A stretch of DNA of 64,000 nucleotides from Trypanosoma brucei (lineage: Eukaryota): NCBI GenBank assembly GCA_000002445.1, contig CM000208.1:2464001-2528000 (forward strand). Reading direction: 5' to 3'. Below are positions 8,487 to 29,742 of the stretch, in pieces (position 1 is the first letter of the stretch; every line of letters starts with the position of its first letter). The position numbers and the translations under genes were made by a program. The notes beneath the pieces are model-generated. The model did no database searches. It saw only the letters and a program-made list of their open reading frames with translations, and was not told the DNA's origin.

Positions 8487-8523
<37 letters not shown>

Positions 8524-10207: not shown

Positions 10208-10323
10208 ATCGCTAAAACTAACGCGAAAGGGAAAAAAATGTGATTTATCAACCCCTCTGTTATACTAATTTTCTAGATCTTTCGTGCTAACGTTTGAATA
10301 ATGGAGTAAATCACCGAAAACAT

Positions 10324-11532: not shown

Positions 11533-11653
11533 TTTCCCAGAGCCACCTAAAGAAGAAAAAGATAGAGCACATACCTGCATCCTGATGCCCAATACACTTC
11601 CACCCACCCATCCCCCTCCCCCAAAAAAATACACACATATATTAGTAAAGTGC

Positions 11654-12766
11654 TTATACCCCACAATCCTTCAACTCTTCCCCCAGAAGCCTGTCCTCCA
11701 CACGTTCCCCATCCACTTGCGCCACCCAGTCCTCCATGCTCTTTTCTTCTTCGTCATCTTCCCCCTCCGTGTTTTTATCAACAGCAGAATTTGCTTTCCT
11801 CCCAAGTGTCCCGAGATCCTCCACATACAGATTCTCCTGAACGAAACGATCTACTAAATGTTTATGCGACGCGTCGACTTTTCTTTCCAGTTCTGCAAAT
11901 AGTTTATAGTCTTTCACCACCTTTACTAGGGTGGGATTCCCTCCCGTTGGATTTTCCTCCCACACCACTGCGGTGTCATACGTTGTCGCCCGGGTGTTTC
12001 CCTTAAACCCCGTCATCTGGGATCCCGACTTGACGACACCGAGCACTCCGTCACCCCATATGATATTCTCAGAGAGATCGCCATTTCCCATATAGCCACC
12101 GCCCGCCTTCCCAACTGTAAGCTGGCATCCCAAATCCTTGCCAAAGTCGTGCCTTGGGTCACCTCCATCCACAAGCAAGCTATCGTGAAGCACGCTTTCC
12201 AAATTCATTTCGAACGGATTTTCAAAAAGGTTTTCGCCTTCTGTAATTTTGAGAGACTCCCACTCACCGCTGTCTTTGTTCTTGGCGTAGCAGCTGGGTA
12301 GCACTTCTTCAGGGAAATTCACACTTAGACCACCGATGCAAGAGTTATTCGCGTCTCTATGGGCCTGAACGAAAACGGACACCATTTCATCCAATCTTCC
12401 TGCGGCAATGCCCGCTTCTCCCACTAATCTCCTTCCAACGTCCCACAACTCGTCCACTTCCCTGACCATGTTCTGCTCATTGATTCTTACCTGTGTAAGG
12501 AATACTCTTAGTGTTCCACACTTCAGTCCTTTGTTCCATTCTGTCAATAATTTCAGTCGTACGACTTTCTGGAGCAGTTGGACTTCCTCGAGTTTTCTGT
12601 CAGCCTCCATGAGTTTCTGCTCGACGAAACCGTGCACAGCCTTTAGTTTTTTTGAGGTATTACATAACGCTTTTATTGCGGACAATTTCAAAGCTGCCCC
12701 AGCGTCCGCATGATGACAACAACCACTTACTAACGCCACTACTAAAAATGCCACTGTTCTTCGCAT
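11654..12766 (-). CDS. PAG5: Procyclin-associated gene family protein (ESAG6/7-like), probably PAG5. Start at the internal Met (MRRTVAFLVVALVSG…); the ORF extends to 12829.
   Basis: Paralog motifs are present (AGIAAGRLDEMVSVF; GGGYMGN…WGDG). The N-terminus aligns with the other PAGs from the internal Met. Confidence 0.6.
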   Translation of the reverse strand: MRRTVAFLVVALVSGCCHHADAGAALKLSAIKALCNTSKKLKAVHGFVEQKLMEADRKLEEVQLLQKVVRLKLLTEWNKGLKCGTLRVFLTQVRINEQNMVREVDELWDVGRRLVGEAGIAAGRLDEMVSVFVQAHRDANNSCIGGLSVNFPEEVLPSCYAKNKDSGEWESLKITEGENLFENPFEMNLESVLHDSLLVDGGDPRHDFGKDLGCQLTVGKAGGGYMGNGDLSENIIWGDGVLGVVKSGSQMTGFKGNTRATTYDTAVVWEENPTGGNPTLVKVVKDYKLFAELERKVDASHKHLVDRFVQENLYVEDLGTLGRKANSAVDKNTEGEDDEEEKSMEDWVAQVDGERVEDRLLGEELKDCGV

Positions 12767-12847
12767 TTGCTGAAGAAAACAAAAGATGTCTGGCACCTGC
12801 AACCCACTAAGTTTTCCCTTAAACCACACAAACTAAAAAATACGATT

Positions 12848-14002
12848 TTAAAACAACAAAAATAACAACGCGAGGGTCCTCCTGAGAGAGCCAATCCTGC
12901 CAACACCACACATCGCCATCTCCTCCAACAGCTTCTCCTCTTGCACCGTTTCTCTGTTCCCGAGCACGACGAAGGACTTCCCACTATCCTCATCTACCAC
13001 TACTGTGCTTTTATTTCCGTGGGTGCCCGTGTTCACAATAGCTTGCGCGTATTCCCAGTTCCAGTGTGCGCCGGTTTCGTGCGCCAGCTCTTCGATGTGA
13101 GTATACAAGTTCACAAATTTGCGAAGCTCTCGGTAGGCGTTTCTAAGAACGGGGACGTTGTTAACGGGGTCTTCCTCCCAAGTTACATCGTGTATTAGAA
13201 CCTCTGCACGGGTTTTTCCTGTCCCCCCAACGAATCCTCTTCCACTTCGTTTAAGGGAAATAATTCCATCTCCCCAGAGTATTCTTCTGGAGGTGCTGTT
13301 TTCGGAGAGGTAGCCGCCCCCCGGACGGGTGTTTGTTAGGTGGCAGTTTGCGCTGTGGACGTAGCGTTCCAAGGGGTTTCCACCGCCACCAGTGAGCCTA
13401 AGCAGTTCGTTCATACTCTCCCGTGTCATGTTCATTTCCTCCACCCTTTCCATGCGGTGCATATCCCCCAAAGAAATAAATTCATCCTTCTCCGAGTCAC
13501 TTAAATAGCAATTCAACAACTGATTCCGCGTCGCGTGGTGCTCGCTATTTCCTACGCAAAAATCCCCTTTCCCACTGGAATACGCGCGCCGCCACACATT
13601 TATCATTTCATCCAACCTCCCCGCCGCTATCCCTGCTGCCCCTACCGCTGAGTATCCAAGATATCTCAACCTCTTCAATTCTCTCCTCTTCACCCTATTC
13701 ACTTTACTCCCCACACGTTTCAAAAACTTCGCGATCCCCGTGCACGAGGTCCAATTGCTATTTCCCCCTTCATTTCCCCTAACCCTCACAATCTTCAACC
13801 TCACCAACTCCACCATATCCTCAAACTCCCTCACCTTCTCGGTTGCATACTTAGTTTTCGCTTGGACGAAGGCATACACCGATTTCAGCCTCTTCGACGC
13901 ATTACAGAGCGCTTCCGCAGCTCCACTCAAACTCAGTGCGCCACTGTCCGCGGAGGCGCTACCAGTAAGTACAAAAAAGGACACAATCACTAATACCTTC
14001 AT
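12848..14002 (-). CDS. PAG1: Procyclin-associated gene family protein (ESAG6/7-like), first PAG after EP2, probably PAG1. Start at the internal Met (MKVLVIVSFFVLTGSASA…); the ORF extends to 14101.
   Basis: Paralog motifs are present (AAGIAAGRLDEMINVW; GGGYLSEN…WGDG). The reverse-complement ATG at 14000-14002 was verified. It lies immediately downstream of EP2 in the transcription direction. Confidence 0.65.
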   Translation of the reverse strand: MKVLVIVSFFVLTGSASADSGALSLSGAAEALCNASKRLKSVYAFVQAKTKYATEKVREFEDMVELVRLKIVRVRGNEGGNSNWTSCTGIAKFLKRVGSKVNRVKRRELKRLRYLGYSAVGAAGIAAGRLDEMINVWRRAYSSGKGDFCVGNSEHHATRNQLLNCYLSDSEKDEFISLGDMHRMERVEEMNMTRESMNELLRLTGGGGNPLERYVHSANCHLTNTRPGGGYLSENSTSRRILWGDGIISLKRSGRGFVGGTGKTRAEVLIHDVTWEEDPVNNVPVLRNAYRELRKFVNLYTHIEELAHETGAHWNWEYAQAIVNTGTHGNKSTVVVDEDSGKSFVVLGNRETVQEEKLLEEMAMCGVGRIGSLRRTLALLFLLF

Positions 14003-15758
14003 GAGCGTGCGAACCCTATTCGCGATGGCAAAGGTCAAGCGAAAAAGGATAATCAAAGAGACCATTTTCGATGATTGATGAAACAGGAAAGACCGCGGCA
14101 AGTTGTGACGCCCCCACTTGGGGACTGGAAAATCCGCCGGGGATGCGCCTGCCAGATTCAGGCTTCAGCAACGGCAACGGCGTTAGTGTTGGCGGGGAAG
14201 GGAAGGTGCAAGGCGCCTTTTTGCAGCTGGAATTTAAAGCTTAACCGACAGCATGAAATCATCCGTGACACTGTCTTATTTCCCTCCAAAACCATTGGAT
14301 ACGCCGTGGTTGGCACACGGCCCATTGCCATCAATTGCTGAGGTGGGCTCGTGTTGCCGGCGGTGGGATCCAATGCACTATGGCGCATCAGAGAAGGAAG
14401 AGCGACCCCCCTGATACTTAGGGGGGTCAAAACAGGGTTTCCAGGCTACAAACCGTTCTTAACGCTATCCGCGACAACACGTTGGTGGGTAGGAAAGTGT
14501 CGGGTAGGGGCTTAAAAGTGAGATTGACCGATGGCAACTATTCTCGAGATGGCATAAAACCCTAACCGCACCCCGCCGACGCTTAGAAATTAGGTCCAGG
14601 AAAGAAAGTCAAGCCCGACCAAGGACCTCCTTTTCTTCGGTTTTGGCTTTGTCGAAAGGACACGAAATCGATCCACCGCGGGGCGCGCAGTGGACTTGTT
14701 ACTTATTTAACTGACTCCTAAACGAGAAAGCTCCCCTGCGGCGCGCGACGCACATCATCTCAAAGGCGATGTGGGAGAGAAAACACTGCGAGAACATATG
14801 ACCACCGACGAGCCGGTGAATGCCCCAGAAGTATTTCAAAAAATGTCACACTCTCCATTGATTGTCCCAGCATATTTCACAAAGTGGACCAAAACAGAGG
14901 GCAGTGCAGTAAATACGTAAAGTTCATGGAAACAACGCGCTTACCCTCTCCGCAGCCTCTCCTCCCCAACAGATCAAGTGGCAGCAGCTCACTCAACTGA
15001 ATCGCTCCCCTGACGAGAACAGTTAAATAAAGGCAAGGCAAAAGGCAAAACACCGCTCAGGCCTCAATTTTGAACAGTTACGGTGAACTTCCTGAAGGTG
15101 CTTTAAAGTTTCCCCGACATATTAACAAACATGATGATGCACCACCGTAGGCGAAGAAGGAATCATCACCAGGAATGTGCTTCCTTCAACCGCTGCTTCC
15201 CATGTTGCAACTCCACGGTGTCAAACGGAAGCTGAGATGGCGGAAATATCGAGGGACAAATCGCTTGAGTCATCAAAAGTCCATTTGTCTCCCATTTCTA
15301 GCCTGAGGTTTTAGAAGGAACTATTTTCCCAGTACGAAAAAAGGACAAGGCAAAAAGTTCGAAAAAAAAAAAGTTCAGTCACAAATGGAGGAGGTTGCTG
15401 TCAACCATTGCAGGAACAAGACATAGGAGAAGACCGCAAATGCAGTGGATGAATTTTTGACAAAACCATACGAATGGTTTACAGAAGAAACCGTTTGGTA
15501 GAAGCCAAGGAACACATTGACAGGCACACGCAGAAGTCTACAGGGCTGCGTGCTACCGCCGACGGTTCCGAGGCATAAAAAAAAAAATAGAACTCAAAAA
15601 AATAGGTTGAAAAAAAATATTACGTATATGCAAGTGTCCTGTCGCCAAGGGACGTCATAAAGCGGGCGCATCGCGCCAAAGGAAAGGTCAAAGAAATAAC
15701 TGGGGCCACCCTTGTTAAAAAGTTTTGACCCCCCAGAGAATTTTCTGTTTACATGAGC

Positions 15759-16148
15759 TTAGAATGCGGCAACGAGACCAACGGCCGCGATTGCAAACGG
15801 AAGAGCAACAGACTTCAGCGTTGCAGCACCAGGTTCAGGTTCAGGTTCAGGTTCCGGCTCGGGTTCCGGCTCGGGTTCAGGTTCGGGTTCAGGTTCGGGT
15901 TCAGGTTCGGGTTCAGGTTCAGGTTCAGGTTCGGGTTCGGGTTCGGGTTCGGGTTCAGGTTCAGGTTCGGGTTCAGGTTCAGGCTCAACTTCGTCCTGGA
16001 CCTTGGTTCCCTTCTCGCCTTTGCCTTTGCCTCCCTTAGTAAGACCCTTGTCTTCTGGTCCTTCAGCGGCTGCGGCAAATCCCACGCCAGCGAAGAGGTT
16101 CGCGCTGAACAGAAGAATAGCGAGCAGATAAAGGGAACGAGGTGCCAT
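15759..16148 (-). CDS. EP2: EP procyclin, non-glycosylated EP2-type. Has about 26 Glu-Pro dipeptide repeats and a GPI-anchor signal.
   Basis: The protein reads [54 protein letters not shown](EP)[24 protein letters not shown]. This is a canonical procyclin N-terminus and C-terminus. It has no N-x-T sequon before the EP tract. Confidence 0.9.
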
Positions 16149-17077: not shown

Positions 17078-17503
17078 TTAGAATGCGGCAACGAGAGCAG
17101 CAGCCGCGACTGCAAACGGAAGTGCAACAGATTTCAGCGTTGCAGCACCAGGTTCAGGTTCAGGTTCGGGTTCAGGTTCCGGCTCGGGTTCCGGCTCGGG
17201 TTCAGGTTCAGGTTCCGGCTCGGGTTCAGGTTCGGGTTCAGGTTCAGGTTCAGGTTCAGGTTCAGGTTCAGGTTCAGGTTCGGGTTCGGGTTCGGGTTCG
17301 GGTTCAGGTTCAGGTTCAGGGTCGGGGTCAGTGCCATTGGTATCGTCGGCGCCGACCTTGGTTCCCTTCTCGCCTTTGCCTTTGCCTCCCTTAGTAAGAC
17401 CCTTGTCTTCTGGTCCTTCAGCGGCTGCGGCAAATCCCACGCCAGCGAAGAGGTTCGCGCTGAACAGAAGAATAGCGAGCAGATAAAGGGAACGAGGTGC
17501 CAT
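17078..17503 (-). CDS. EP1: EP procyclin, N-glycosylated EP1-type. Has about 28 EP repeats preceded by [12 protein letters not shown].
   Basis: The protein reads [62 protein letters not shown](EP)[24 protein letters not shown]. It matches the known EP1 sequence almost residue for residue. It is the first gene of the unit. Confidence 0.9.
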
Positions 17504-17800
17504 TGTGAATTTTACTTCTTGGTGTAATTGAAGTCTTCAAGTTGAAAAAAATGGGGAAAAGGAAAAAAAACTCGAAGGCGCGTGCAGCGATCACGAGAAC
17601 ATGTTAAACTCAGTACTCACCCGATAACCCCTATTTTCAATGCACGCCCACCCAGAGACACGGAACAGCACAAAACAACCATATCACTTCCACAAAATGG
17701 ACATTTTACACAAAATGCACTATTGACTAGTACTCAACTATACTAATAAGAGATACCTATCGGACACGATATACTGTGAAAAGGATATTAAGCTCACTAT
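17504..17800 (-). promoter_or_regulatory. Expected RNA polymerase I procyclin (EP1) promoter region plus the splice-acceptor/5' flank
   Basis: In T. brucei the procyclin promoter lies within about 250 bp upstream of the first EP gene's trans-splice site. The 5' flank 17467-17560 is duplicated verbatim upstream of EP2 (16112-16200), but the sequence beyond about 17565 is unique to EP1. Exact promoter elements were not identified by eye. Confidence 0.45.
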
Positions 17801-19205
17801 GCATCTGAAAACGCTTTCACCTCACAACCTACTGACACACACCTTTCCGCTTAACCCCAATGACAACAAAGGCTGACTGCACCTCACATCTGAGGAAGAG
17901 GTCCAGGGGAGCGGTGCCTGTTCGCGGTGCGGAATTGTTGTTTCCCCCTCTTCCTCATCCGCCCCCTCGGTTCCGTGGGCCCTGACTCCCGAAGAGTTTT
18001 CGAGAATTGTTAATAGAGAAGGGATTCGCTCACCATATTCGGAACAATACACTTGTCAGAAGTTTGGCAATCCAGTTTGGGGGCACTGAAAAGCACTTTG
18101 TGGTGAATCAGCGGCATTTAGGCCGGCAGCGGTATGTTTTGCTACGAAACACCGGGCATCGAAGAAGTCAGAAAGCCCTTCAGCACGACGGCTGATGGAG
18201 AACGCTGGTAAAGTTTTCCTTTCATGCGCCCTCAACGAGAACTAGCGGAAATTAAAACCAATTTCGGCGGATAAAGGCCCCGCAACTCGGCACATCGGCG
18301 GCGTTGGTGGGCCGACTCACCGATAAAACGAGCCGACACCTGCCACCACACACACTGGTATATGAAGGGGGCACCTCCGGTGGGCACGCAACTCCCAATG
18401 AGCTTTTGCCGTGGTGGGAACCGTGGCGCGCCTGATTGGTTGAAATTTCGTCGGCACAATGACCTGCCAGGATGCGTTGGGCTTGGTTAAGGATGTTGGC
18501 GCTTTGGGGAAACGAAGACCCACGCTCAGCGGAGCCTGAACATGGGACCACATCTGCGTGGTTTATTGGGCTGCCAAGGCCTCCGAAAGGCGAGCCCGAT
18601 CCTGGAAACGGGTGGAGCAAGTTCCTAAGAGGGTTGCTCTCCCGCGTTTCACGGCCCACTGCCTACGCGCGCAGGGTAAGTAAATTGGCTTAGACATAGC
18701 CCCCGAAAGGGGAAAAAGAAGGTCAAGGATGGCAACCGGGTTCTGTCCGTGACATTGCGAGGGACAATTGGTTGCCATGACCGGAAGGCGCCCGCCACCC
18801 ATGGGTTTCTACCCACCCCCAAATGAGGCGAGGGTTTTGCAGGCTAGGAATATCTATGATTGAATCAAATATTGCCATGCCTCCCCCCGATGTGGGACAC
18901 GCAAATGCGTTACGCTCCCCTCCCCCCCCCCCCCCGAAGGGACCGAACGCACAGCCTCCTCCACGAGGTGGAACAAAGGAAACGGTAGGACAGCAGCGGC
19001 GCACGACTACCACACAACCACTGAGCACACCGATGAGAAGCGATACGCTTGGAACATGGGGCGCACCGAAGGGAAAAAGCACTGAAGAAAAGGGCGGAGC
19101 GGGTGAATCGAAGGGCTCCCCGAATGTAAACACGCGCGCACTGAAGAACACACACCGCGACAGTTGCTCAAAGTCAGCGCGACCCGGGTGTTGCATTGCA
19201 CCTAG

Positions 19206-19372
19206 GCGCACACGCAACTCCACTGCCTCCTGTAGCAAGGCCGCGTAAGTTTGGGGGCCTCCAAGGGCAAGTCAAAACCCGTCGAGGCGGAGCCTCGGTT
19301 AGATAACGGTAACGGAACACGCTACAGCGGGTCCGGCGTCGCTACAGGAGGCAGTGGAGTTGCGTGTGCGGA
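19206..19372. repeat. Perfect 31-bp inverted repeat (gcgcacacgcaactccactgcctcctgtagc … gctacaggaggcagtggagttgcgtgtgcgg) with a spacer of about 105 bp. A potential long stem-loop inside a GC-rich island.
   Basis: The two arms (about 19207-19237 and 19340-19370) are exact reverse complements. This was seen directly and is also reflected in mirror peptides …RTRNSTASCS… on both strands. Confidence 0.85.
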
Positions 19373-22065
19373 AACCACAGTGCAGGGTGCGCAGTGGATA
19401 ATTTGTGGAAAGGCTACCATCCGCGTCCGACCACGTTGTGACGGCCGAATGGTTTCCATCACGACATGGCTGCCCACGTATCACGACGAAACCGATAAGA
19501 GATTCGCAGGGTCCAATGGAAGGAGTGAAAAAAACGGGGTGAAGATGAGGAAAGAAAGGCAACACTTACGAGCATTCCGAAATTAAAGCCCGTGATACGG
19601 AGGAGCTGTGTCAAATTGCGAATGACGGAGACGATGTTGGGATACACCTCACAGCATTAAGCTGGGGTCGCCGTTCTCACTGGCATCCCTGGATGCGATA
19701 ACAAGGAGTTGGGCCATATCGGCGAAACGCTACCAGCAATAGCCGAGCTTTAAGCAGTAAGCGAGGAAAGCTGGTGCAACCGGGAACCCACCACTGGGTG
19801 TGCGACCGGGAAGGGAAGGAAATCCGCAGCCAGTTGGAGTTGGTATTCCAATGGTCGTCGGGCTACTTGGCCACTACCACCCGTACCTCAACCGCCTCAC
19901 ACACCCAACAGCATGCACTTACTCATGCACCAAGACGCATGAATAAATGCACTGGGAAGGTAAATAAATTCAGCTTTAAAAAAAAAAGATGAGCCAGGGA
20001 GATTACGTAAAAGGGGCTCATCCGCACCTCCCGCACACCGCAAAATAATAATAATAATAACGCTATGTTAAAAAGCACAAGCAACGGAAAAGCCTCTGCT
20101 TACATTTGTTAATGCACAGGCGCAGCGCAGCGGAGAGAACCCTGCAATTCTCCATGCGCAAAATCACTGTTCAACCGAAAGGGACGACACCCCGAGTGGC
20201 GCAAGTACGGCGGCCAGGGCATGTTTACAAACATGCGTTGAGTATGGCGACTCGACAATCCCCCAAAAATTATGAAAATGGGGGGCAGCAAGACCCGCAC
20301 CCACAACCCACACGGTTTTAGAGCAAACACGCCTACAGGCATCAAAAAAAGTAAAAAAAACTGGCACAGTCATAAAAGGTCCCAGCCGACTTTCCAGCAC
20401 GTTCTCCACCTTCACCTTTGAACGTTAGAAACATTACAACGGTGATCTGTGTGACGCACCTTTGTTAAATTACCCTTAAAAGATAGACAAAAAGCGAAGG
20501 ATCATTAGCGACGTCGCAATACAACCGAGTTTCCGCAACAACCGCAACGACACCCCATTTCCACACAATGCAAAACCGAAGGCAGCACTTCCTCACCACC
20601 CTTCCGCCTCCGCACTACTTGTCATGACCCCCCGCGTTGTCGCCCCCGTAGTGATACCGCTTCCGTGATTTCAAAGGACATAAACACTTACAAAACTGGT
20701 ACAAATCCCTGCACCATCAACATGATAGTGGTTGGCATACTTTCCAACCGCTGTGGTCTGAACTCGCACTACCTTCCCAACCTCTACAATCACACAAAGG
20801 GACAAAAAAATCAGAGGTTCTACTCCAACCTACGGCGTATTCAGTACCACAGCCCAGCATCCGAAGGGACAAAACACGCACCAACAACTCGGGCACGATT
20901 TACACCGTTCCCTCGCACCGACAAGCCACACAAACACCAAATTCATTACGAAATATAACCATCCCCTCACTAATACAAGGCGAAACAATAAGCATAATCA
21001 AACAGCTGACAGACAGAAATCCACCGCAGGGCTCAATGTAAGCTAACTTCGCCCTCCCCCTCCCTCACCCTATGGCCTCAGTGTTGCCCTGTAAAACCTT
21101 CTCTGACACTAGTCAAGCAGAGGTAAAAACTAACCTAACCCTAACACTCTCACACAATGAAAGGAGAATCCGTGGGGAATTTGGGAAAAGGCAAAGCACA
21201 CACGGTAAGCAGTCGGCACAACCCCTGGCGCAAAGAAGGCGCAACTGCACGCAAACAAGGCATTCGATTCAGTACCTTCTGTAGGATATGTGGGTTGCCA
21301 TACCGTAGGCAGTTACCAGTAACAGAAACGTATGGGGAAGGAAAGAATCAAAATATAGCTAAAGCTCCTCAACGCATATATATATACATATATTACCGTT
21401 TCACAGCCAATTCATACATCACACTTAACGCTCCCTCTAAACAACGACCCCAAACAATAACATCCCCAGGTACCTCACCAACAACAACAACAACACAATT
21501 CTTAATTAGCAAATATGGCTTCAATGGAGGCAAAGGAAGAAAGGAAGGACGTACACTCCAACTGTGAGATCCCGCTCGAATCAGCTGTAGCGACGAGAGT
21601 AGTTAACGGAAGGTCGACCCAGGGACCCACATCGCATCCCTACGCTGCCGTTAACATACCCTCAAGTGAAAATTAAAAAAAAAAATGGACCAAAAGTTGA
21701 TTTCAGCAAAAGTGCGTCCGAAAGAAAGGGCACGAAACAACAAACAGAAAATAATCAGCAGCAAAATAAATACATCACATTACGTGGCTATCACTGGACA
21801 CAACCAATAGTTGGTCAGCACGTGCCAGTAGTCGATCGACAAAATACATAATAATCAGCACAGTTAGCACAGGAGAGATAATATCAGCCCTTTCACGCAA
21901 CGCATTATCCACACTCACAACACGAAACAACTACGTTGAGGACAAACGAATGGCGCCACCCAATGGCATACTCCTGCGTACATTGATCTCCACAGTGCAG
22001 CACTCATACGTAAAGACCTTCCAATCACAGTTTAAAAAAGAGGAAAATACCGCTTCTCAAATATT

Positions 22066-25000
22066 CTACACCTTGCGACCCGAGTGATTAACGAAGGTTG
22101 CGCGGTTAGTCGTAACATACATCGAAGGGTCCACATGACGGACCTGTACTGCAGGTTTCCCAATGGGACGAGGAGGACATTGTACCTCAGGCCTGATAAA
22201 CCTGTTGCGGTATTCGCTGCTTACACCTTGCATAGAAATGCTTGACTGTTTAACAGTCGGAGCAGCCTTTGGCATATAAGGTTTGCTGGCACCGTGTGCC
22301 TTGAAATCTCTATGCGCGGTACTCACGTACATATCAGCATCTACATGACAAGGGCAGGAATAACCAACATTAGGGGCCTTTTTCCACTTTGACACACGTA
22401 CTCCGTTACCAGTTGGTTGATCGCCCACAGCCGCAGCAGCACACTCAGTAGTAGCTGCAACAGCCGCAGCAGCACCTCCATTACTCTCCCCACTTGCGAC
22501 ACACTTCATATCAGTGGAGACATCAACCTTCTTTGATGTCACACCACCATCACTTTTACCTTTCACGACCTTCTTAACAACAATAGCATCAGCTACAGAT
22601 GAAGCAGTAAAGCTATGCCTCTTAGATATAACAGATTCATCACCAAAGGAAGACTCCCTACACGAACTCTTATAACAAGAAGAATCATAGCGACAATACG
22701 AATCCTTTGCAGTTGTCCTAAAGTGGCCATCATCACCACCGCGACTTGACACTTTCACAACTTCCTCACGGAGCACATCACGCTTATATGCGGCAGGGTC
22801 AATTGGTGCATACGATTCTGCAGTGGTTGAGCGGAAGTGACTGGGATCAACATGACGAGGGCCCGTTGCCTCCTCTTCCTCACGGAGCACATCACGCTTA
22901 TATGCGGCAGGGTCAATTGGCGCATACGATTCTGCAGTGGTTGAGCGGAAGTGACTGGGATCAACATGACGAGGGCCCGTTGCCTCCTCTTCCTCACGGA
23001 GCACATCACGCTTATATGCGGCAGGGTCAATTGGCGCATACGATTCTGCAGTGGTTGAGCGGAAGTGACTGGGATCAACATGACGAGGGCCCGTTACCTC
23101 CTCTTCCTCACGGAGCACATCACGCTTATATGCGGCAGGGTCAATTGGCGCATACGATTCTGCAGTGGTTGAGCGGAAGTGACTGGGATCAACATGACGA
23201 GGGCCCGTTACCTCCTCTTCCTCACGGAGCACATCACGCTTATATGCGGCAGGGTCAATTGGTGCATACGATTCTGCAGTGGTTGAGCGGAAGTGACTGG
23301 GATCAACATGACGAGGGCCCGTTACCTCCTCTTCCTCACGGAGCACATCACGCTTATATGCGGCAGGGTCAATTGGTGCATGCGATTCTGCAGTGGTTGA
23401 GCGGAAGTGACTGGGGTCAACATGACGAGGGCCCGTTACCTCCTCTTCCTCACGGAGCACATCACGCTTATATGCGGCAGGGTCAATTGGCGCATACGAT
23501 TCTGCAGTGGTTGAGCGGAAGTGACTGGGGTCAACATGACGAGGGCCCGTTACCTCCTCTTCCTCACGGAGCACATCACGCTTATATGCGGCAGGGTCAA
23601 TTGGCGCATACGATTCTGCAGTGGTTGAGCGGAAGTGACTGGGGTCAACATGACGAGGGCCCGTTACCTCCTCTTCCTCACGGAGCACATCACGCTTATA
23701 TGCGGCAGGGTCAATTGGTGCATACGATTCTGCAGTGGTTGAGCGGAAGTGACTGGGGTCAACATGACGAGGGCCCGTTACCTCCTCTTCCTCACGGAGC
23801 ACATCACGCTTATATGCGGCAGGGTCAATTGGCGCATACGATTCTGCAGTGGTTGAGCGGAAGTGACTGGGGTCAACATGACGAGGGCCCGTTACCTCCT
23901 CTTCCTCACGGAGCACATCACGCTTATATGCGGCAGGGTCAATTGGCGCATACGATTCTGCAGTGGTTGAGCGGAAGTGACTGGGGTCAACATGACGAGG
24001 GCCCGTTACCTCCTCTTCCTCACGGAGCACATCACGCTTATATGCGGCAGGGTCAATTGGCGCATACGATTCTGCAGTGGTTGAGCGGAAGTGACTGGGA
24101 TCAACATGACGAGGGCCCGTTGCCTCCTCTTCCTCACGGAGCACATCACGCTTATATGCGGCAGGGTCAATTGGCGCATACGATTCTGCAGTGGTTGAGC
24201 GGAAGTGACTGGGATCAACATGACGAGGGCCCGTTACCTCCTCTTCCTCACGGAGCACATCACGCTTATATGCGGCAGGGTCAATTGGCGCATACGATTC
24301 TGCAGTGGTTGAGCGGAAGTGACTGGGGTCAACATGACGAGGGCCCGTTACCTCCTCTTCCTCACGGAGCACATCACGCTTATATGCGGCAGGGTCAATT
24401 GGCGCATACGATTCTGCAGTGGTTGAGCGGAAGTGACTGGGATCAACATGACGAGGGCCCGTTACCTCCTCTTCCTCACGGAGCACATCACGCTTATATG
24501 CGGCAGGGTCAATTGGCGCATACGATTCTGCAGTGGTTGAGCGGAAGTGACTGGGATCAACATGACGAGGGCCCGTTACCTCCTCTTCCTCACGGAGCAC
24601 ATCACGCTTATATGCGGCAGGGTCAATTGGCGCATACGATTCTGCAGTGGTTGAGCGGAAGTGACTGGGATCAACATGACGAGGGCCCGTTACCTCCTCT
24701 TCCTCACGGAGCACATCACGCTTATATGCGGCAGGGTCAATTGGTGCATACGATTCTGCAGTGGTTGAGCGGAAGTGACTGGGGTCAACATGACGAGGGC
24801 CCGTTACCTCCTCTTCCTCACGGAGCACATCACGCTTATATGCGGCAGGGTCAATTGGTGCATACGATTCTGCAGTGGTTGAGCGGAAGTGACTGGGGTC
24901 AACATGACGAGGGCCCGTTACCTCCTCTTCCTCACGGAGCACATCACGCTTATATGCGGCAGGGTCAATTGGCGCATACGATTCTGCAGTGGTTGAGCGG

Positions 25001-28000
25001 AAGTGACTGGGGTCAACATGACGAGGGCCCGTTACCTCCTCTTCCTCACGGAGCACATCACGCTTATATGCGGCAGGGTCAATTGGCGCATACGATTCTG
25101 CAGTGGTTGAGCGGAAGTGACTGGGGTCAACATGACGAGGGCCCGTTACCTCCTCTTCCTCACGGAGCACATCACGCTTATATGCGGCAGGGTCAATTGG
25201 TGCATACGATTCTGCAGTGGTTGAGCGGAAGTGACTGGGGTCAACATGACGAGGGCCCGTTACCTCCTCTTCCTCACGGAGCACATCACGCTTATATGCG
25301 GCAGGGTCAATTGGCGCATACGATTCTGCAGTGGTTGAGCGGAAGTGACTGGGATCAACATGACGAGGGCCCGTTACCTCCTCTTCCTCACGGAGCACAT
25401 CACGCTTATATGCGGCAGGGTCAATTGGCGCATACGATTCTGCAGTGGTTGAGCGGAAGTGACTGGGATCAACATGACGAGGGCCCGTTGCCTCCTCTTC
25501 CTCACGGAGCACATCACGCTTATATGCGGCAGGGTCAATTGGCGCATACGATTCTGCAGTGGTTGAGCGGAAGTGACTGGGATCAACATGACGAGGGCCC
25601 GTTACCTCCTCTTCCTCACGGAGCACATCACGCTTATATGCGGCAGGGTCAATTGGCGCATACGATTCTGCAGTGGTTGAGCGGAAGTGACTGGGGTCAA
25701 CATGACGAGGGCCCGTTACCTCCTCTTCCTCACGGAGCACATCACGCTTATATGCGGCAGGGTCAATTGGTGCATACGATTCTGCAGTGGTTGAGCGGAA
25801 GTGACTGGGATCAACATGACGAGGGCCCGTTACCTCCTCTTCCTCACGGAGCACATCACGCTTATATGCGGCAGGGTCAATTGGTGCATACGATTCTGCA
25901 GTGGTTGAGCGGAAGTGACTGGGATCAACATGACGAGGGCCCGTTACCTCCTCTTCCTCACGGAGCACATCACGCTTATATGCGGCAGGGTCAATTGGTG
26001 CATACGATTCTGCAGTGGTTGAGCGGAAGTGACTGGGGTCAACATGACGAGGGCCCGTTACCTCCTCTTCCTCACGGAGCACATCACGCTTATATGCGGC
26101 AGGGTCAATTGGCGCATACGATTCTGCAGTGGTTGAGCGGAAGTGACTGGGATCAACATGACGAGGGCCCGTTACCTCCTCTTCCTCACGGAGCACATCA
26201 CGCTTATATGCGGCAGGGTCAATTGGTGCATACGATTCTGCAGTGGTTGAGCGGAAGTGACTGGGGTCAACATGACGAGGGCCCGTTACCTCCTCTTCCT
26301 CACGGAGCACATCACGCTTATATGCGGCAGGGTCAATTGGCGCATACGATTCTGCAGTGGTTGAGCGGAAGTGACTGGGGTCAACATGACGAGGGCCCGT
26401 TACCTCCTCTTCCTCACGGAGCACATCACGCTTATATGCGGCAGGGTCAATTGGCGCATACGATTCTGCAGTGGTTGAGCGGAAGTGACTGGGATCAACA
26501 TGACGAGGGCCCGTTACCTCCTCTTCCTCACGGAGCACATCACGCTTATATGCGGCAGGGTCAATTGGCGCATACGATTCTGCAGTGGTTGAGCGGAAGT
26601 GACTGGGATCAACATGACGAGGGCCCGTTACCTCCTCTTCCTCACGGAGCACATCACGCTTATATGCGGCAGGGTCAATTGGCGCATACGATTCTGCAGT
26701 GGTTGAGCGGAAGTGACTGGGGTCAACATGACGAGGGCCCGTTACCTCCTCTTCCTCACGGAGCACATCACGCTTATATGCGGCAGGGTCAATTGGCGCA
26801 TACGATTCTGCAGTGGTTGAGCGGAAGTGACTGGGGTCAACATGACGAGGGCCCGTTACCTCCTCTTCCTCACGGAGCACATCACGCTTATATGCGGCAG
26901 GGTCAATTGGCGCATACGATTCTGCAGTGGTTGAGCGGAAGTGACTGGGGTCAACATGACGAGGGCCCGTTACCTCCTCTTCCTCACGGAGCACATCACG
27001 CTTATATGCGGCAGGGTCAATTGGCGCATACGATTCTGCAGTGGTTGAGCGGAAGTGACTGGGATCAACATGACGAGGGCCCGTTACCTCCTCTTCCTCA
27101 CGGAGCACATCACGCTTATATGCGGCAGGGTCAATTGGCGCATACGATTCTGCAGTGGTTGAGCGGAAGTGACTGGGGTCAACATGACGAGGGCCCGTTA
27201 CCTCCTCTTCCTCACGGAGCACATCACGCTTATATGCGGCAGGGTCAATTGGCGCATACGATTCTGCAGTGGTTGAGCGGAAGTGACTGGGATCAACATG
27301 ACGAGGGCCCGTTACCTCCTCTTCCTCACGGAGCACATCACGCTTATATGCGGCAGGGTCAATTGGTGCATACGATTCTGCAGTGGTTGAGCGGAAGTGA
27401 CTGGGGTCAACATGACGAGGGCCCGTTGCCTCCTCTTCCTCACGGAGCACATCACGCTTATATGCGGCAGGGTCAATTGGCGCATACGATTCTGCAGTGG
27501 TTGAGCGGAAGTGACTGGGATCAACATGACGAGGGCCCGTTGCCTCCTCTTCCTCACGGAGCACATCACGCTTATATGCGGCAGGGTCAATTGGTGCATA
27601 CGATTCTGCAGTGGTTGAGCGGAAGTGACTGGGATCAACATGACGAGGGCCCGTTACCTCCTCTTCCTCACGGAGCACATCACGCTTATATGCGGCAGGG
27701 TCAATTGGTGCATACGATTCTGCAGTGGTTGAGCGGAAGTGACTGGGGTCAACATGACGAGGGCCCGTTACCTCCTCTTCCTCACGGAGCACATCACGCT
27801 TATATGCGGCAGGGTCAATTGGTGCATACGATTCTGCAGTGGTTGAGCGGAAGTGACTGGGGTCAACATGACGAGGGCCCGTTACCTCCTCTTCCTTACG
27901 GAGCACATCACGCTTATATGCGGCAGGGTCAATTGGTGCATACGATTCTGCAGTGGTTGAGCGGAAGTGACTGGGGTCAACATGACGAGGGCCCGTTACC

Positions 28001-28839
28001 TCCTCTTCCTCACGGAGCACATCACGCTTATATGCGGCAGGGTCAATTGGTGCATACGATTCTGCAGTGGTTGAGCGGAAGTGACTGGGATCAACATGAC
28101 GAGGGCCCGTTACCTCCTCTTCCTCACGGAGCACATCACGCTTATATGCGGCAGGGTCAATTGGTGCATACGATTCTGCAGTGGTTGAGCGGAAGTGACT
28201 GGGGTCAACATGACGAGGGCCCGTTACCTCCTCTTCCTCACGGAGCACATCACGCTTATATGCGGCAGGGTCAATTGGTGCATACGATTCTGCAGTGGTT
28301 GAGCGGAAGTGACTGGGGTCAACATGACGAGGGCCCGTTACCTCCTCTTCCTCACGGAGCACATCACGCTTATATGCGGCAGGGTCAATTGGTGCATACG
28401 ATTCTGCAGTGGTTGAGCGGAAGTGACTGGGATCAACATGACGAGGGCCCGTTACCTCCTCTTCCTCACGGAGCATATCACGCTTATATGCGGCAGGGTC
28501 AATTGGTGCATACGATTCTGCAGTGGTTGAGCGGAAGTGACTGGGATCAACATGACGAGGGCCCGTTACCTCCTCTTCCTCACGGAGCATATCACGCTTA
28601 TATGCGGCAGGGTCAATTGGTGCATACGATTCTTTCATTGTGGAAAGTATTTCTTTATAATTTTGTTTATTTGCTTTTTGTTGTTTCATATAAAGGTTTT
28701 CAGTATTGTGCGGCAAACTTTTTTTTTTGTTTTTTATGTCGATGCAATCGTAGACCTCTGCTCTTTCTTTATCTCTTTGTGGATATGGTTGCGGATCATT
28801 CCACTTATAGTCTGCTTCTAATCCCTTTGTGCCAGGCAT
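22066..28839 (-). CDS. MARP: Microtubule-associated repetitive protein (MARP-type), copy A, 2257 aa. A short unique N-terminus is followed by about 50 near-identical 38-aa repeats (SYAPIDPAAYKRDVLREEEEVTGPRHVDPSHFRSTTAE) and a unique C-terminal domain of about 250 aa.
   Basis: The 38-aa repeat of the high-molecular-weight MARP-1/2 microtubule-associated proteins of T. brucei is recognisable, and the 114-bp nucleotide periodicity is visible across 22760-28630. The gene lies in the local - strand coding direction. The equally long + strand ORF is a mirror artefact. Confidence 0.85.
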   Translation of the reverse strand: MPGTKGLEADYKWNDPQPYPQRDKERAEVYDCIDIKNKKKSLPHNTENLYMKQQKANKQNYKEILSTMKESYAPIDPAAYKRDMLREEEEVTGPRHVDPSHFRSTTAESYAPIDPAAYKRDMLREEEEVTGPRHVDPSHFRSTTAESYAPIDPAAYKRDVLREEEEVTGPRHVDPSHFRSTTAESYAPIDPAAYKRDVLREEEEVTGPRHVDPSHFRSTTAESYAPIDPAAYKRDVLREEEEVTGPRHVDPSHFRSTTAESYAPIDPAAYKRDVLREEEEVTGPRHVDPSHFRSTTAESYAPIDPAAYKRDVLRKEEEVTGPRHVDPSHFRSTTAESYAPIDPAAYKRDVLREEEEVTGPRHVDPSHFRSTTAESYAPIDPAAYKRDVLREEEEVTGPRHVDPSHFRSTTAESYAPIDPAAYKRDVLREEEEATGPRHVDPSHFRSTTAESYAPIDPAAYKRDVLREEEEATGPRHVDPSHFRSTTAESYAPIDPAAYKRDVLREEEEVTGPRHVDPSHFRSTTAESYAPIDPAAYKRDVLREEEEVTGPRHVDPSHFRSTTAESYAPIDPAAYKRDVLREEEEVTGPRHVDPSHFRSTTAESYAPIDPAAYKRDVLREEEEVTGPRHVDPSHFRSTTAESYAPIDPAAYKRDVLREEEEVTGPRHVDPSHFRSTTAESYAPIDPAAYKRDVLREEEEVTGPRHVDPSHFRSTTAESYAPIDPAAYKRDVLREEEEVTGPRHVDPSHFRSTTAESYAPIDPAAYKRDVLREEEEVTGPRHVDPSHFRSTTAESYAPIDPAAYKRDVLREEEEVTGPRHVDPSHFRSTTAESYAPIDPAAYKRDVLREEEEVTGPRHVDPSHFRSTTAESYAPIDPAAYKRDVLREEEEVTGPRHVDPSHFRSTTAESYAPIDPAAYKRDVLREEEEVTGPRHVDPSHFRSTTAESYAPIDPAAYKRDVLREEEEVTGPRHVDPSHFRSTTAESYAPIDPAAYKRDVLREEEEVTGPRHVDPSHFRSTTAESYAPIDPAAYKRDVLREEEEVTGPRHVDPSHFRSTTAESYAPIDPAAYKRDVLREEEEVTGPRHVDPSHFRSTTAESYAPIDPAAYKRDVLREEEEATGPRHVDPSHFRSTTAESYAPIDPAAYKRDVLREEEEVTGPRHVDPSHFRSTTAESYAPIDPAAYKRDVLREEEEVTGPRHVDPSHFRSTTAESYAPIDPAAYKRDVLREEEEVTGPRHVDPSHFRSTTAESYAPIDPAAYKRDVLREEEEVTGPRHVDPSHFRSTTAESYAPIDPAAYKRDVLREEEEVTGPRHVDPSHFRSTTAESYAPIDPAAYKRDVLREEEEVTGPRHVDPSHFRSTTAESYAPIDPAAYKRDVLREEEEVTGPRHVDPSHFRSTTAESYAPIDPAAYKRDVLREEEEVTGPRHVDPSHFRSTTAESYAPIDPAAYKRDVLREEEEVTGPRHVDPSHFRSTTAESYAPIDPAAYKRDVLREEEEVTGPRHVDPSHFRSTTAESYAPIDPAAYKRDVLREEEEVTGPRHVDPSHFRSTTAESYAPIDPAAYKRDVLREEEEATGPRHVDPSHFRSTTAESYAPIDPAAYKRDVLREEEEVTGPRHVDPSHFRSTTAESYAPIDPAAYKRDVLREEEEVTGPRHVDPSHFRSTTAESYAPIDPAAYKRDVLREEEEVTGPRHVDPSHFRSTTAESYAPIDPAAYKRDVLREEEEVTGPRHVDPSHFRSTTAESYAPIDPAAYKRDVLREEEEVTGPRHVDPSHFRSTTAESYAPIDPAAYKRDVLREEEEVTGPRHVDPSHFRSTTAESHAPIDPAAYKRDVLREEEEVTGPRHVDPSHFRSTTAESYAPIDPAAYKRDVLREEEEVTGPRHVDPSHFRSTTAESYAPIDPAAYKRDVLREEEEVTGPRHVDPSHFRSTTAESYAPIDPAAYKRDVLREEEEATGPRHVDPSHFRSTTAESYAPIDPAAYKRDVLREEEEATGPRHVDPSHFRSTTAESYAPIDPAAYKRDVLREEVVKVSSRGGDDGHFRTTAKDSYCRYDSSCYKSSCRESSFGDESVISKRHSFTASSVADAIVVKKVVKGKSDGGVTSKKVDVSTDMKCVASGESNGGAAAAVAATTECAAAAVGDQPTGNGVRVSKWKKAPNVGYSCPCHVDADMYVSTAHRDFKAHGASKPYMPKAAPTVKQSSISMQGVSSEYRNRFIRPEVQCPPRPIGKPAVQVRHVDPSMYVTTNRATFVNHSGRKV
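22760..28630. repeat. Tandem array of 114-bp units (MARP repeat array A)
   Basis: An exact 114-bp period is visible. Three biallelic positions per unit (ggcgca/ggtgca, gggatc/ggggtc, ccgttac/ccgttgc) occur in mosaic combinations. Confidence 0.9.
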
Positions 28840-29169: not shown

Positions 29170-29742
29170 TTACATTTGGGTTCTCGCGCCACAGTTCCTT
29201 CCCGCGGACAACTGTCTTTGCACGTGGTGGTTTAAAATGGTGACATCCATAGCAGACTTTGTTGTGCGAAATCGGTCAACCATGGCATCATCTACTGTTG
29301 GTTGGTTTACTGGTTTGGACAGTTTCCCAGTTAGTGCAAAGCGGTCTACGCCGCTGAGCGTGTTTAACGGTTTGCAATGGTGCTTTGGCTTCCCATACCT
29401 GCTATCAATCAGGTATCGCTGTGTGGCGCCATAGTCTTTGCTTGTTGCCACCACTTCATCGACTGTTGGTAGGCCGCTTCCAAATATAAGGCTCTTCCCG
29501 AGTCCACGCTGCCGCAACATCGGCCGGACAGCTGTAACACATGGGGTAGAGTAATCAGCCTTATAAACTGAGGACGGCAGCGGAGATTGGCCGTCTACTG
29601 CGATCGTGAATTTGCCATGCGCCTCATTGATGCGTGCGTCGAACCAGTTATCTACGAGGACACCGCTGTTGTAATGGTTGTCAAAACATGGAAGAACTCG
29701 CTTGTCCCCGGTGTGCATGCTGGCGCCTGCAACCGATTCCAC
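29170..29742 (-). CDS. Hypothetical 190-aa protein, copy A. An identical copy lies at 52607-53179.
   Basis: The ORF is conserved perfectly within both copies of the duplication and sits upstream of each MARP gene. No recognisable domain. Confidence 0.5.
   Translation of the reverse strand: MESVAGASMHTGDKRVLPCFDNHYNSGVLVDNWFDARINEAHGKFTIAVDGQSPLPSSVYKADYSTPCVTAVRPMLRQRGLGKSLIFGSGLPTVDEVVATSKDYGATQRYLIDSRYGKPKHHCKPLNTLSGVDRFALTGKLSKPVNQPTVDDAMVDRFRTTKSAMDVTILNHHVQRQLSAGRNCGARTQM

What the first reader, a model, noticed from the sequence alone, without database searches (positions are those of the whole stretch)
18250..19700. GC-rich island with a 31-bp perfect inverted repeat and a C14/G14 tract just upstream of the procyclin promoter
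Between the MARP 3' flank and the EP1 promoter lies a roughly 1.4 kb region that is unusually GC-rich for trypanosome intergenic DNA. It has only short ORFs on both strands with no codon-bias look. It contains a perfect 31-bp inverted repeat (arms at about 19207-19237 and 19340-19370, about 105-nt loop) and a C14 run at 18922-18935. Inverted repeats are rare by chance (about 4^-31). Candidate functions are a hairpin ncRNA or siRNA source (T. brucei has RNAi) or a pol II terminator or boundary shielding the pol I promoter from read-through. It could also be a degenerate gene or retroelement fragment.
Basis: seen in the sequence. Interest (0 to 1): 0.6.

Follow-up and report, generated by a model that had tools for sequence, protein, structure and literature searches.

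The report
Spacer where Pol II stops before procyclin
The GC-rich stretch with a hairpin and a G/C run is real, but it is fast-evolving non-coding DNA at an already-described boundary in Trypanosoma brucei, where RNA polymerase II winds down just before the polymerase-I procyclin genes, and nothing shows that the hairpin or the run does anything.

Summary
Window 18250-19700 is 57.1% GC, the richest 1.45-kb stretch in the 64 kb. The perfect inverted repeat is 30 bp (19207-19236/19341-19370), or 35 of 37 bp when extended, and shuffles give at most 16 bp. C14 sits at 18922-18935. The window is T. brucei TREU927 chromosome 10. All relevant genes are on the minus strand, in the order MARP, island, procyclin promoter, EP1. 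The island contains the annotated ORF Tb10.6k15.0010 (= Tb927.10.10270 by gene order). It does not look coding: codon usage is not gene-like, the frame is broken in T. b. gambiense, and no homologue or Pfam domain was found. It diverges 3.1% between haplotypes, against 0.8% in MARP coding sequence. It begins about 75 bp beyond the edge of the procyclin cassette shared with chromosome 6, whose promoter has no such island upstream. Published data fit a Pol II termination zone. The transcript is scarce, untranslated and RBP33-bound, rises 3.6-fold when base J is lost, and lies within 10 kb of H3.V and J. PNUTS or PP1-1 knockdown lets Pol II read through into EP1. No evidence supports an siRNA hairpin, a retroelement or a gene relic. 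The boundary reading is supported only at locus level.

The parts
18250..19700 (-). GC-rich non-coding island. It is the last stretch of the Pol II unit before the procyclin cassette.
   Evidence: 57.1% GC, 99.5th percentile. No coding signature. 3.1% divergence between haplotypes. Unique within the window.
19207..19243 (.). Left arm of the inverted repeat (perfect part 19207-19236).
   Evidence: Folds.
19334..19370 (.). Right arm of the inverted repeat (perfect part 19341-19370).
   Evidence: In the equiperdum/gambiense haplotype there are changes at 19335, 19340 and 19369, and about 30 contiguous pairs are still kept.
18917..18935 (-). Homopolymer tract: C14 on the plus strand (18922-18935), which reads G14-A-G4 on the sense (minus) strand and fits a G-quadruplex motif.
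   Evidence: It is G14 in T. b. equiperdum and G13 in T. b. gambiense.
18723..19196 (-). Annotated ORF Tb10.6k15.0010 (= Tb927.10.10270 by gene order), 157 aa, most likely not translated.
   Evidence: Exact match to XP_823248.1. It is 155 aa in equiperdum and frame-shifted to 111 aa in gambiense, where it is labelled 'unlikely'. No homologues. 5 synonymous and 8 non-synonymous changes. Not detected by ribosome profiling, per the RBP33 table.
17369..18174 (-). Upstream part of the procyclin cassette shared with the chromosome 6 GPEET locus. It contains the Pol I promoter, and the homology ends sharply at about 18175.
   Evidence: 95% identity to L003 9330-10134. Junction alignment. The promoter position inside this block (about 17630-17900) is my estimate from published promoter mapping and was not tested here.
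17078..17503 (-). EP1 procyclin gene.
   Evidence: EP-repeat ORF. EP1 = Tb10.6k15.0020.
19808..19822 (-). Polypyrimidine tract on the sense strand just upstream of the island. It is a candidate trans-splice signal for the island RNA.
   Evidence: Its role is inferred.
18705..18722 (-). Polypyrimidine tract immediately after the ORF stop codon. It is a candidate signal for RNA processing.
   Evidence: Its role is inferred.
20060..21148 (-). Published non-coding transcript Tb10.NT.119 (1088 nt), lying between MARP and the island.
   Evidence: Kolev 2010 supplement, chr10 v4 2,485,148->2,484,060. Window coordinate + 2,464,000 = v4 coordinate.
21016..22065 (-). MARP 3' flank, duplicated at 99.9% identity downstream of the second MARP copy (44909-45993).
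22066..28839 (-). MARP gene (114-bp repeats), the last protein-coding gene of the Pol II unit.
   Evidence: Literature.

Best explanation
The island is non-coding spacer DNA at the tail of a long minus-strand Pol II transcription unit. It lies between the last real gene (MARP) and the Pol I procyclin cassette, inside the zone where Pol II is attenuated and terminated.

Shown by sequence:
- It starts about 75 bp outside the cassette that chromosomes 6 and 10 share.
- It has no coding signature and no relatives.
- It diverges as fast as any non-coding DNA at the locus.

Shown by published experiments:
- Pol II normally stops somewhere between MARP and EP1 in bloodstream forms, and this depends on base J and the PNUTS/PP1 complex.
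- The RNA annotated over the island (Tb927.10.10270) is scarce, not ribosome-associated and enriched with the nuclear surveillance protein RBP33.
- That RNA rises when base J is removed.

Inferred:
- The splice acceptor that MARP needs for its own polyadenylation forces production of downstream junk RNAs (Tb10.NT.119, then the island RNA), which are made at low level and degraded.
- The 30-37 bp hairpin, which ends 10 nt upstream of the ORF's ATG, and the G13-14 run are products of local mutation (fold-back or template switching, and replication slippage). They have no demonstrated function, although the hairpin would in any case block translation of the ORF.
For: Layout and identity.
Single copy in the window; the MARP duplication ends at 21016.
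Cassette homology with chromosome 6 ends at 18174, and there is no island upstream of the chromosome 6 promoter.
Not coding: codon score is at or below 0, against +0.10 to +0.22 for real genes, with no GC dip at codon position 2. The frame is broken by G-run length change. 8 of 13 substitutions are non-synonymous. There are no homologues or domains, and the four phmmer hits are repeat-inflated noise.
No constraint: 3.1% divergence, against 1.5% in the neighbouring spacer (p = 0.005-0.008) and 0.8% in MARP coding sequence.
No counterpart in the T. melophagium syntenic locus.
Literature:
- Pol II terminates just upstream of Pol I genes.
- PNUTS or PP1-1 knockdown gives BMH-21-insensitive readthrough into EP/PAG1.
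- Tb427.10.10270 goes from 4.0 to 14.3 RPKM on J loss (P = 0.001) and lies within 10 kb of H3.V and J.
- RBP33 RIP enrichment is log2 2.68; the transcript is detected in the Kolev transcriptome and not detected by ribosome profiling.
- RBP33 depletion raises RNA at the EP1 Pol I/Pol II boundary.
- Tb10.NT.119 lies at 21148->20060.
Long G/C runs recur in non-coding DNA of this locus and vary in length between subspecies.
Against: - A 30-bp perfect inverted repeat is far beyond chance, and both haplotypes keep about 30 contiguous pairs and a G run of at least 13. 'Neutral by-product' is therefore an assumption, not a result.
- Only two effective haplotypes were available, so conservation and covariation tests have almost no power.
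- The high GC content is unexplained.
- The published termination data have kilobase resolution at best (10 kb for the H3.V and J flags). They do not show that termination happens in the island rather than upstream or downstream of it.
- The identity Tb10.6k15.0010 = Tb927.10.10270 = Tb427.10.10270 rests on gene order, not on a direct cross-reference.
Confidence: 0.65

Rival explanations
1. The sequence features are active cis-elements of the boundary. The sense-strand G14-A-G4 tract (G-quadruplex or R-loop prone), the very stable hairpin in the nascent RNA and the GC-rich DNA would slow or stall Pol II, or nucleate H3.V and base J chromatin. Pol II would then terminate before it reaches the Pol I promoter.
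For: - The island lies in an interval where Pol II termination has been shown experimentally.
- The hairpin and a G run of at least 13 persist in both haplotypes despite 3% divergence around them.
- The G tract fits a G4 motif on the non-template (sense) strand.
- Two of the three stem substitutions preserve pairing only in minus-strand RNA, the strand that is transcribed.
Against: - The chromosome 6 procyclin promoter has the same kind of upstream Pol II unit but no island, hairpin or similar sequence.
- The island evolves faster than the adjacent spacer.
- About half of random transitions would preserve RNA pairing anyway, so two of three means nothing.
- Long G/C runs are common in non-coding DNA at this locus and change length freely.
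- No sequence determinant of termination is known in T. brucei.
- RBP33 shows no sequence specificity.
Confidence: 0.15
2. The hairpin is a Dicer (DCL2) substrate. It would yield one or a few siRNAs, or a microRNA-like RNA, acting on this locus or in trans.
For: - T. brucei has RNAi, and the island is transcribed.
- The stem (30-37 bp, about -100 kcal/mol) is long enough for one 24-26 nt duplex.
- The neighbouring convergent region (Tschudi CTU41) produces DCL2-dependent siRNAs and may or may not extend over the island.
Against: - The systematic survey found siRNA-producing inverted repeats of 422 bp to 10 kb only. The chromosome 10 one is at 0.47 Mb, no chromosome 10 locus appears in the 'miscellaneous' list, and no miRNAs were found.
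- There is no Rfam family match.
- The hairpin has no known target elsewhere in the window.
Confidence: 0.05
3. The island is the decayed remnant of a gene, or of an ingi, RIME, SLACS or DIRE retroelement, or of other captured DNA. That would explain its coding-like GC content.
For: - Its GC content is nearer to coding than to intergenic DNA.
- One minus-strand frame has only 4 stop codons in 346 codons from 19289 to 18252, fewer than composition predicts by my estimate.
Against: - No Pfam domain in any of six frames.
- No homologue for either long ORF in 5.8 billion or 1.8 billion proteins.
- No codon-position GC pattern.
- No poly(A) tail or target-site duplication is visible.
- No second copy in the window, in chromosome 6 or in the other loci held.
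Confidence: 0.07
4. Tb927.10.10270 is a genuine T. brucei-specific protein-coding gene of 157 aa.
For: It is annotated in TREU927 and T. b. equiperdum, and the transcript has been detected.
Against: - The frame is lost in T. b. gambiense through G-run slippage.
- Codon usage is not gene-like.
- Most substitutions are non-synonymous.
- There are no homologues.
- It is not detected by ribosome profiling.
- A hairpin of about -100 kcal/mol ends 10 nt upstream of the ATG.
Confidence: 0.03

Closest known systems
Pol II termination regions at the ends of T. brucei polycistronic units, marked by H3.V, H4.V and base J and dependent on PNUTS-JBP3-Wdr82/PP1. The specific case is the Pol II-to-Pol I boundary upstream of EP/PAG1, called 'cSSR 10.7' by Kieft 2024.
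   Same: It occupies the same place: downstream of the last Pol II gene and upstream of the Pol I promoter. Its transcript behaves like other RNAs beyond a J-dependent attenuation site. It is scarce, rises on J loss, lies within 10 kb of H3.V and J, and readthrough into EP1 follows PNUTS or PP1-1 knockdown.
   Different: Those studies define a zone, not a sequence. No role has been reported for the GC-rich block, the hairpin or the G run, and I did not test one.
RBP33-bound non-productive Pol II transcripts ('hypothetical' or 'unlikely' ORF RNAs near the ends of transcription units).
   Same: Tb927.10.10270 is in the RBP33 RIP list. It is low in abundance and not translated, and the EP1 boundary is named as a site of increased RNA on RBP33 loss.
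   Different: RBP33 binding shows no sequence specificity, so membership says nothing about the hairpin or the G run.
siRNA-producing long inverted repeats of T. brucei (IR1-IR7, Tschudi 2012).
   Same: It is an inverted repeat with near-perfect arms in transcribed DNA.
   Different: The arms are 30-37 bp, against 422-10,011 bp. It is not in the published list, and no small-RNA data were examined.
Upstream spacer or boundary elements of other T. brucei Pol I units (50-bp repeat arrays upstream of VSG expression-site promoters, rDNA spacer). This comparison is from my own knowledge.
   Same: It is non-coding DNA directly upstream of a Pol I promoter, separating it from neighbouring transcription.
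   Different: It is not repetitive, shows no sequence similarity to anything tested, and is absent from the other procyclin locus.

Membership tests
T. brucei Pol II termination region | Lies at the end of a Pol II polycistronic unit, next to a convergent unit or a unit transcribed by another polymerase. | tested here: met
   On the minus strand the order is MARP, island, Pol I procyclin cassette. The literature gives the same layout.
T. brucei Pol II termination region | Enriched in H3.V, H4.V and base J. | tested here: inconclusive
   Reynolds 2016 Table S1 flags Tb427.10.10270 as within 10 kb of both H3.V and J. That resolution is too coarse to place the marks on the island, and ChIP tracks are not available in these tools.
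T. brucei Pol II termination region | Downstream RNA increases when J, PNUTS or PP1-1 is removed (readthrough). | tested here: met
   From published data, not from my own experiment. The island transcript rises 3.6-fold on DMOG treatment. EP1 rises 4-fold and is BMH-21-insensitive on PP1-1 knockdown. PNUTS knockdown is covered.
T. brucei Pol II termination region | A defined cis-acting terminator sequence. | not testable with these tools
   None is known for T. brucei Pol II, so neither the hairpin nor the G run can be scored against a consensus.
siRNA-producing long inverted repeats (Tschudi 2012) | Near-identical arms hundreds to thousands of bp long. | tested here: not met
   The arms are 30 bp perfect, or 37 bp with 2 mismatches, against 422-10,011 bp.
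siRNA-producing long inverted repeats (Tschudi 2012) | Argonaute-bound 22-25 nt RNAs map to the repeat. | not testable with these tools
   The locus is not listed among IR1-IR7 or the miscellaneous loci. CTU41 may or may not include it. Read-level data are not available.
ingi/RIME/SLACS/DIRE retroelement fragment | Reverse transcriptase or endonuclease coding remnants. | tested here: not met
   A six-frame Pfam scan of 17900-20100 gave no family except one sub-threshold DUF hit (E = 0.12).
ingi/RIME/SLACS/DIRE retroelement fragment | Nucleotide similarity to element consensus sequences, and multiple genomic copies. | not testable with these tools
   No T. brucei genome or repeat library can be searched here. 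Within the sequences held there is no second copy, and no paralogous ORF appears in the protein database.
Protein-coding gene | Reading frame kept among close relatives, gene-like codon usage, and homologues. | tested here: not met
   The frame is shifted in gambiense. The codon score is at or below 0. There are 8 non-synonymous and 5 synonymous changes. No homologues were found.
Known structured RNA families (Rfam), tRNA | Match to a covariance model, or a tRNA fold. | tested here: not met
   No Rfam hit at gathering threshold in the window, and none at E <= 5 in 17500-22100. No tRNA was found.
Miniature inverted-repeat transposable element | Terminal inverted repeats flanked by a target-site duplication, with multiple copies. 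| tested here: not met
   The flanks ACCTAGG and GAAACCA share no direct repeat. There is no other copy in the window or the loci held.

The most novel reading that the evidence does not exclude
The stable nascent-RNA hairpin, together with the sense-strand G14 run, is the hitherto undefined cis-signal that makes Pol II pause and terminate (or that seeds H3.V and base J) in front of the chromosome 10 procyclin promoter. It would be the first sequence-defined Pol II terminator for a trypanosome polycistronic unit.
Probability: 0.08. Interest if true: 0.65.

Novelty: already known. Interest (0 to 1): 0.2.

Why it matters
How Pol II terminates in trypanosomes is still unknown at the sequence level. 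The MARP-to-EP1 boundary is one of the few places where a termination failure has a clear read-out: a silent Pol I locus becomes transcribed by Pol II. If the hairpin or the G run contributed, this short, single-copy interval would be a convenient test-bed. As the evidence stands, the island is ordinary. It is an annotated but non-coding 'hypothetical' ORF region in an already-described termination zone. The practical gain is to flag Tb927.10.10270 as very probably not a gene.

Tried and rejected
- Exact look-ups of the EP1 and EP2 proteins to fetch other strains found nothing on record. TREU927 itself is not in the contig index.
Run on the exact 135-aa ORF, it gave four weak hits that are tandem-repeat proteins matching different query segments. 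I rejected these as compositional.
- The six-frame Pfam scan was negative.
- Rfam at gathering and lenient thresholds, and the tRNA scan, were negative.
- Synteny outside T. brucei: the only non-brucei homologue of the 469-aa gene at 5987-7396 (presumed GU2) was in T. melophagium. Its locus has a different gene order downstream and no similarity to the island, so it is uninformative.
- My first reading, that the homopolymer is 6-7 nt shorter in other subspecies, was an alignment artefact. The tract is G14/G13 there.
- I recalled that strand-specific G runs mark Pol II start regions (Siegel 2009). The paper is not held, two searches did not retrieve a supporting statement, and the G4 paper had nothing on boundaries. 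I left this as an unverified recollection and did not use it.
- The ISWI and MCM-BP papers contained nothing specific on the region upstream of EP1.
- The MITE idea was rejected because there is no target-site duplication and no other copy.
- Mapping Tschudi's CTU41 onto the window failed because I do not know the v4-to-v5 coordinate offset.
Full report
**What the window is.** The 157-aa ORF at 18723-19196 on the minus strand is an exact match to T. brucei brucei TREU927 hypothetical protein Tb10.6k15.0010 (XP_823248.1). Poly(A) sites published for EP1 and EP2 fit window coordinate + 2,464,000 exactly, so the window is chromosome 10 (v4) 2,464,001-2,528,000. The CAGGTT hexamer arrays at 15830-15987 and 17149-17331 read GAACCT (Glu-Pro) on the minus strand. 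The EP procyclin ORFs (15759-16148, 17078-17503), four PAG-sized ORFs (9086-14101) and two MARP genes with 114-bp repeats (22066-28839, 45959-52276) are all on the minus strand. Transcription therefore runs MARP, then the island, then the procyclin promoter, then EP1, EP2 and the PAGs. It meets plus-strand genes (159-7396) at a convergent region. This is the published EP/PAG1 layout.

**Checking the observation.** The stretch 18250-19700 is 57.1% GC, at the 99.5th percentile of 1450-bp windows, and CpG is not depleted (observed/expected 0.96). MARP repeats are 55.4% GC, ordinary coding sequences 52-53% and the neighbouring spacers 45-49%, so the excess is real but modest. The inverted repeat is real. 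Its perfect part is 30 bp (19207-19236 / 19341-19370), not 31, and the extended arms match at 35 of 37 positions. It is the only substantial inverted repeat in 64 kb. Chance expectation is 3-6e-11, and block-shuffled sequences give longest stems of 11-16 bp. Both strands fold strongly, at -108 and -102 kcal/mol with z-scores of -9.7 and -8.8. C14 at 18922-18935 is confirmed, and on the sense strand it reads G14-A-G4.

**Is it coding or a relic?** Real genes in the window score +0.10 to +0.22 per codon in frame and show a GC dip at codon position 2. The island's best frame scores about 0 and shows no dip. The annotated ORF has no relatives outside its own T. brucei cluster among 5.8 billion proteins. 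The second long ORF (135 aa), searched with HMMER against 1.8 billion representatives, gave four weak hits. All four are tandem-repeat proteins that match different parts of the query through repeated stretches, so I treat them as noise. Six-frame translation of 17900-20100 hits no Pfam family. There is no Rfam family and no tRNA. The island has no second copy in the window, and no similarity to the chromosome 6 locus or to the T. melophagium syntenic locus.

**Comparison with other subspecies.** I fetched the orthologous loci of T. b. equiperdum (L001) and T. b. gambiense (L002). These two share one haplotype. Measured against TREU927, divergence is as follows:
- the island: 3.1%
- the adjacent unique spacer (19701-21015): 1.5% (Fisher p = 0.005-0.008 against the island)
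- the MARP 3' flank: 2.3-3.0%
- the cassette upstream region: 3.1-3.4%
- MARP coding sequence: 0.8%

There is therefore no sign of purifying selection. Within the ORF, 8 of 13 substitutions are non-synonymous. The homopolymer is G14-A-G4 in TREU927, G14 in equiperdum and G13 in gambiense, which makes the ORF 157, 155 and 111 aa respectively. In gambiense the frame is shifted and the ORF is annotated 'hypothetical protein, unlikely'. The hairpin is present in both haplotypes with about 30 contiguous pairs. Four substitutions fall in the stem region. Two preserve pairing in minus-strand RNA (G.U to A-U, and C-G to U.G), one lies in a bulge, and one breaks the second outermost pair. About half of random transitions would preserve RNA pairing, so this carries no weight with only two haplotypes.

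**Relation to the procyclin cassette.** The chromosome 6 GPEET locus (L003) is 95% identical to chromosome 10 from the procyclin genes upstream to window 18174. Homology then stops abruptly. The island begins about 75 bp beyond that junction, so it is chromosome-10-specific flank and not part of the duplicated promoter cassette. The 9 kb upstream of the chromosome 6 promoter has no GC-rich block (43-52% GC) and no long inverted repeat. Whatever the island does, the procyclin promoter does not generally require it.

**What published experiments say about this spot.**
- Reviews state that Pol II terminates just upstream of Pol I-transcribed genes. H3.V, H4.V and base J mark such regions, no mechanism or sequence signal is known, and RBP33 is implicated.
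- Kieft et al. 2020 and 2024 show that the chromosome 10 EP/PAG1 unit lies immediately downstream of a Pol II unit. PNUTS or PP1-1 knockdown in bloodstream forms lets Pol II read through into it. [quoted passage not shown]
- EP1 is Tb10.6k15.0020 and PAG4 is Tb427.10.10210. By gene order, the island ORF Tb10.6k15.0010 is therefore Tb927.10.10270.
- In Reynolds 2016 Table S1, Tb427.10.10270 rises from 4.0 to 14.3 RPKM when base J is depleted (3.6-fold, P = 0.001). It is flagged as within 10 kb of both H3.V and J.
- In the RBP33 RIP-seq table, Tb927.10.10270 is enriched (470 and 494 reads against 75 in the input, log2 2.68). It is detected in the Kolev transcriptome and not detected by ribosome profiling.
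- Kolev 2010 also lists a novel minus-strand transcript, Tb10.NT.119, at window 21,148->20,060. Its 5' end lies inside the MARP 3' flank that is duplicated downstream of the second MARP copy. That duplication ends at 21016/44909, only 78 bp from the ATG of the next gene in copy 2.

**Interpretation.** In trypanosomes, polyadenylation of one gene is coupled to trans-splicing of whatever lies downstream (introduction). MARP copy 1 therefore carries a splice acceptor that has no gene behind it. The result is a series of low-level, non-coding, processed RNAs: Tb10.NT.119 and then the island RNA. They are made by Pol II that is being attenuated in a J-, H3.V- and PNUTS/PP1-dependent zone, are bound by RBP33 and are presumably degraded. 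Sense-strand polypyrimidine tracts at 19822-19808 and 18722-18705 are plausible processing signals, though this is an inference. The hairpin ends 10 nt upstream of the ORF's ATG, and such a structure would block scanning ribosomes, which is consistent with the absence of ribosome footprints. I regard the hairpin as a product of a fold-back or template-switch mutation, and the G run as a slippage-prone homopolymer. G or C runs of 10-14 recur in non-coding DNA at this locus and vary in length between subspecies. These last points are inferences and have not been shown.

**siRNA idea.** The systematic survey of T. brucei siRNA sources found seven inverted repeats of 422 bp to 10 kb. The chromosome 10 one is at 0.47 Mb. 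No chromosome 10 locus is in the 'miscellaneous' class, and no miRNAs were found. A convergent-unit entry, CTU41 (v5 2,504,000-2,518,000; 5,778 reads, DCL2-dependent), probably corresponds to the PAG/GU2 overlap next door. At 14 kb it is about as long as the whole span from the end of the 469-aa gene at 7396 to the MARP stop at 22066, so it might include the island. I could not resolve the coordinate offset.

**Verdict.** The siRNA and relic-gene ideas have no support. The region and its behaviour are already described in the literature, and the hairpin is an undescribed curiosity. Interest is low (0.2). The residual novel reading, that the hairpin and G run act as a cis-terminator, has a probability of about 0.08.

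Noticed in passing
22066-28839 and 45959-52276 (also 29170-29742 / 52607-53179, and 21016-22100 / 44909-45993): There are two MARP genes with 114-bp repeats (51.5 and 47.5 copies). Each lies in a duplicated block that includes an upstream 190-aa ORF and a 1085-bp 3' flank at 99.9% identity. The duplication ends at 21016/44909, only 78 bp from the ATG of the next gene in copy 2.
   Followed up: partly
20060-21148 (minus strand): The published non-coding transcript Tb10.NT.119 (Kolev 2010) maps here. Its 5' end falls in the duplicated MARP flank, which suggests an 'orphan' splice acceptor inherited from the duplication.
   Followed up: partly
21052-21070 (minus strand): A second G-quadruplex-type motif, GGGTGAGGGAGGGGGAGGG, lies on the sense strand close to the end of the MARP-flank duplication and to the start of Tb10.NT.119.
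   Followed up: no
8488-8527, 8626-8635, 8751-8761; L001 14646-14742 and 18039-18048; L002 14570-14582 and 17838-17976: The convergent strand-switch region carries a G10 run, a C11 run and an (AT)n palindrome. Comparable G/C runs of 10-14 occur downstream of EP2 and in the switch region of the other subspecies, with different lengths. Long G/C homopolymers therefore seem to be a recurrent, unstable feature of non-coding DNA at this locus.
   Followed up: partly
about 18175 (L003 about 9330): There is a sharp breakpoint of homology between the chromosome 10 EP and chromosome 6 GPEET procyclin loci, about 670 bp upstream of the EP1 ATG. It marks the upstream edge of the duplicated procyclin cassette.
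   Followed up: yes
21250-21499: This is a local divergence hotspot between TREU927 and the other subspecies, with 30 differing alignment columns in 250 bp. It probably coincides with a (TA)n microsatellite, whose equivalent in the second copy lies at 45264-45293.
   Followed up: no
17563-18174: The region upstream of EP1 that contains the Pol I promoter differs by 3.1-3.4% between TREU927 and the equiperdum/gambiense haplotype, as much as the island does. This suggests two old allelic lineages of the whole locus, possibly the EP/PAG1 and EP/PAG2 alleles known from the literature.
   Followed up: no
L004 (T. melophagium JAJSEB010000060.1): The 469-aa gene at 5987-7396 (presumed GU2) has only one non-brucei homologue in the database (42% identity, T. 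melophagium). There, three upstream genes are syntenic, but further plus-strand genes follow it, so the convergent region lies elsewhere.
   Followed up: partly
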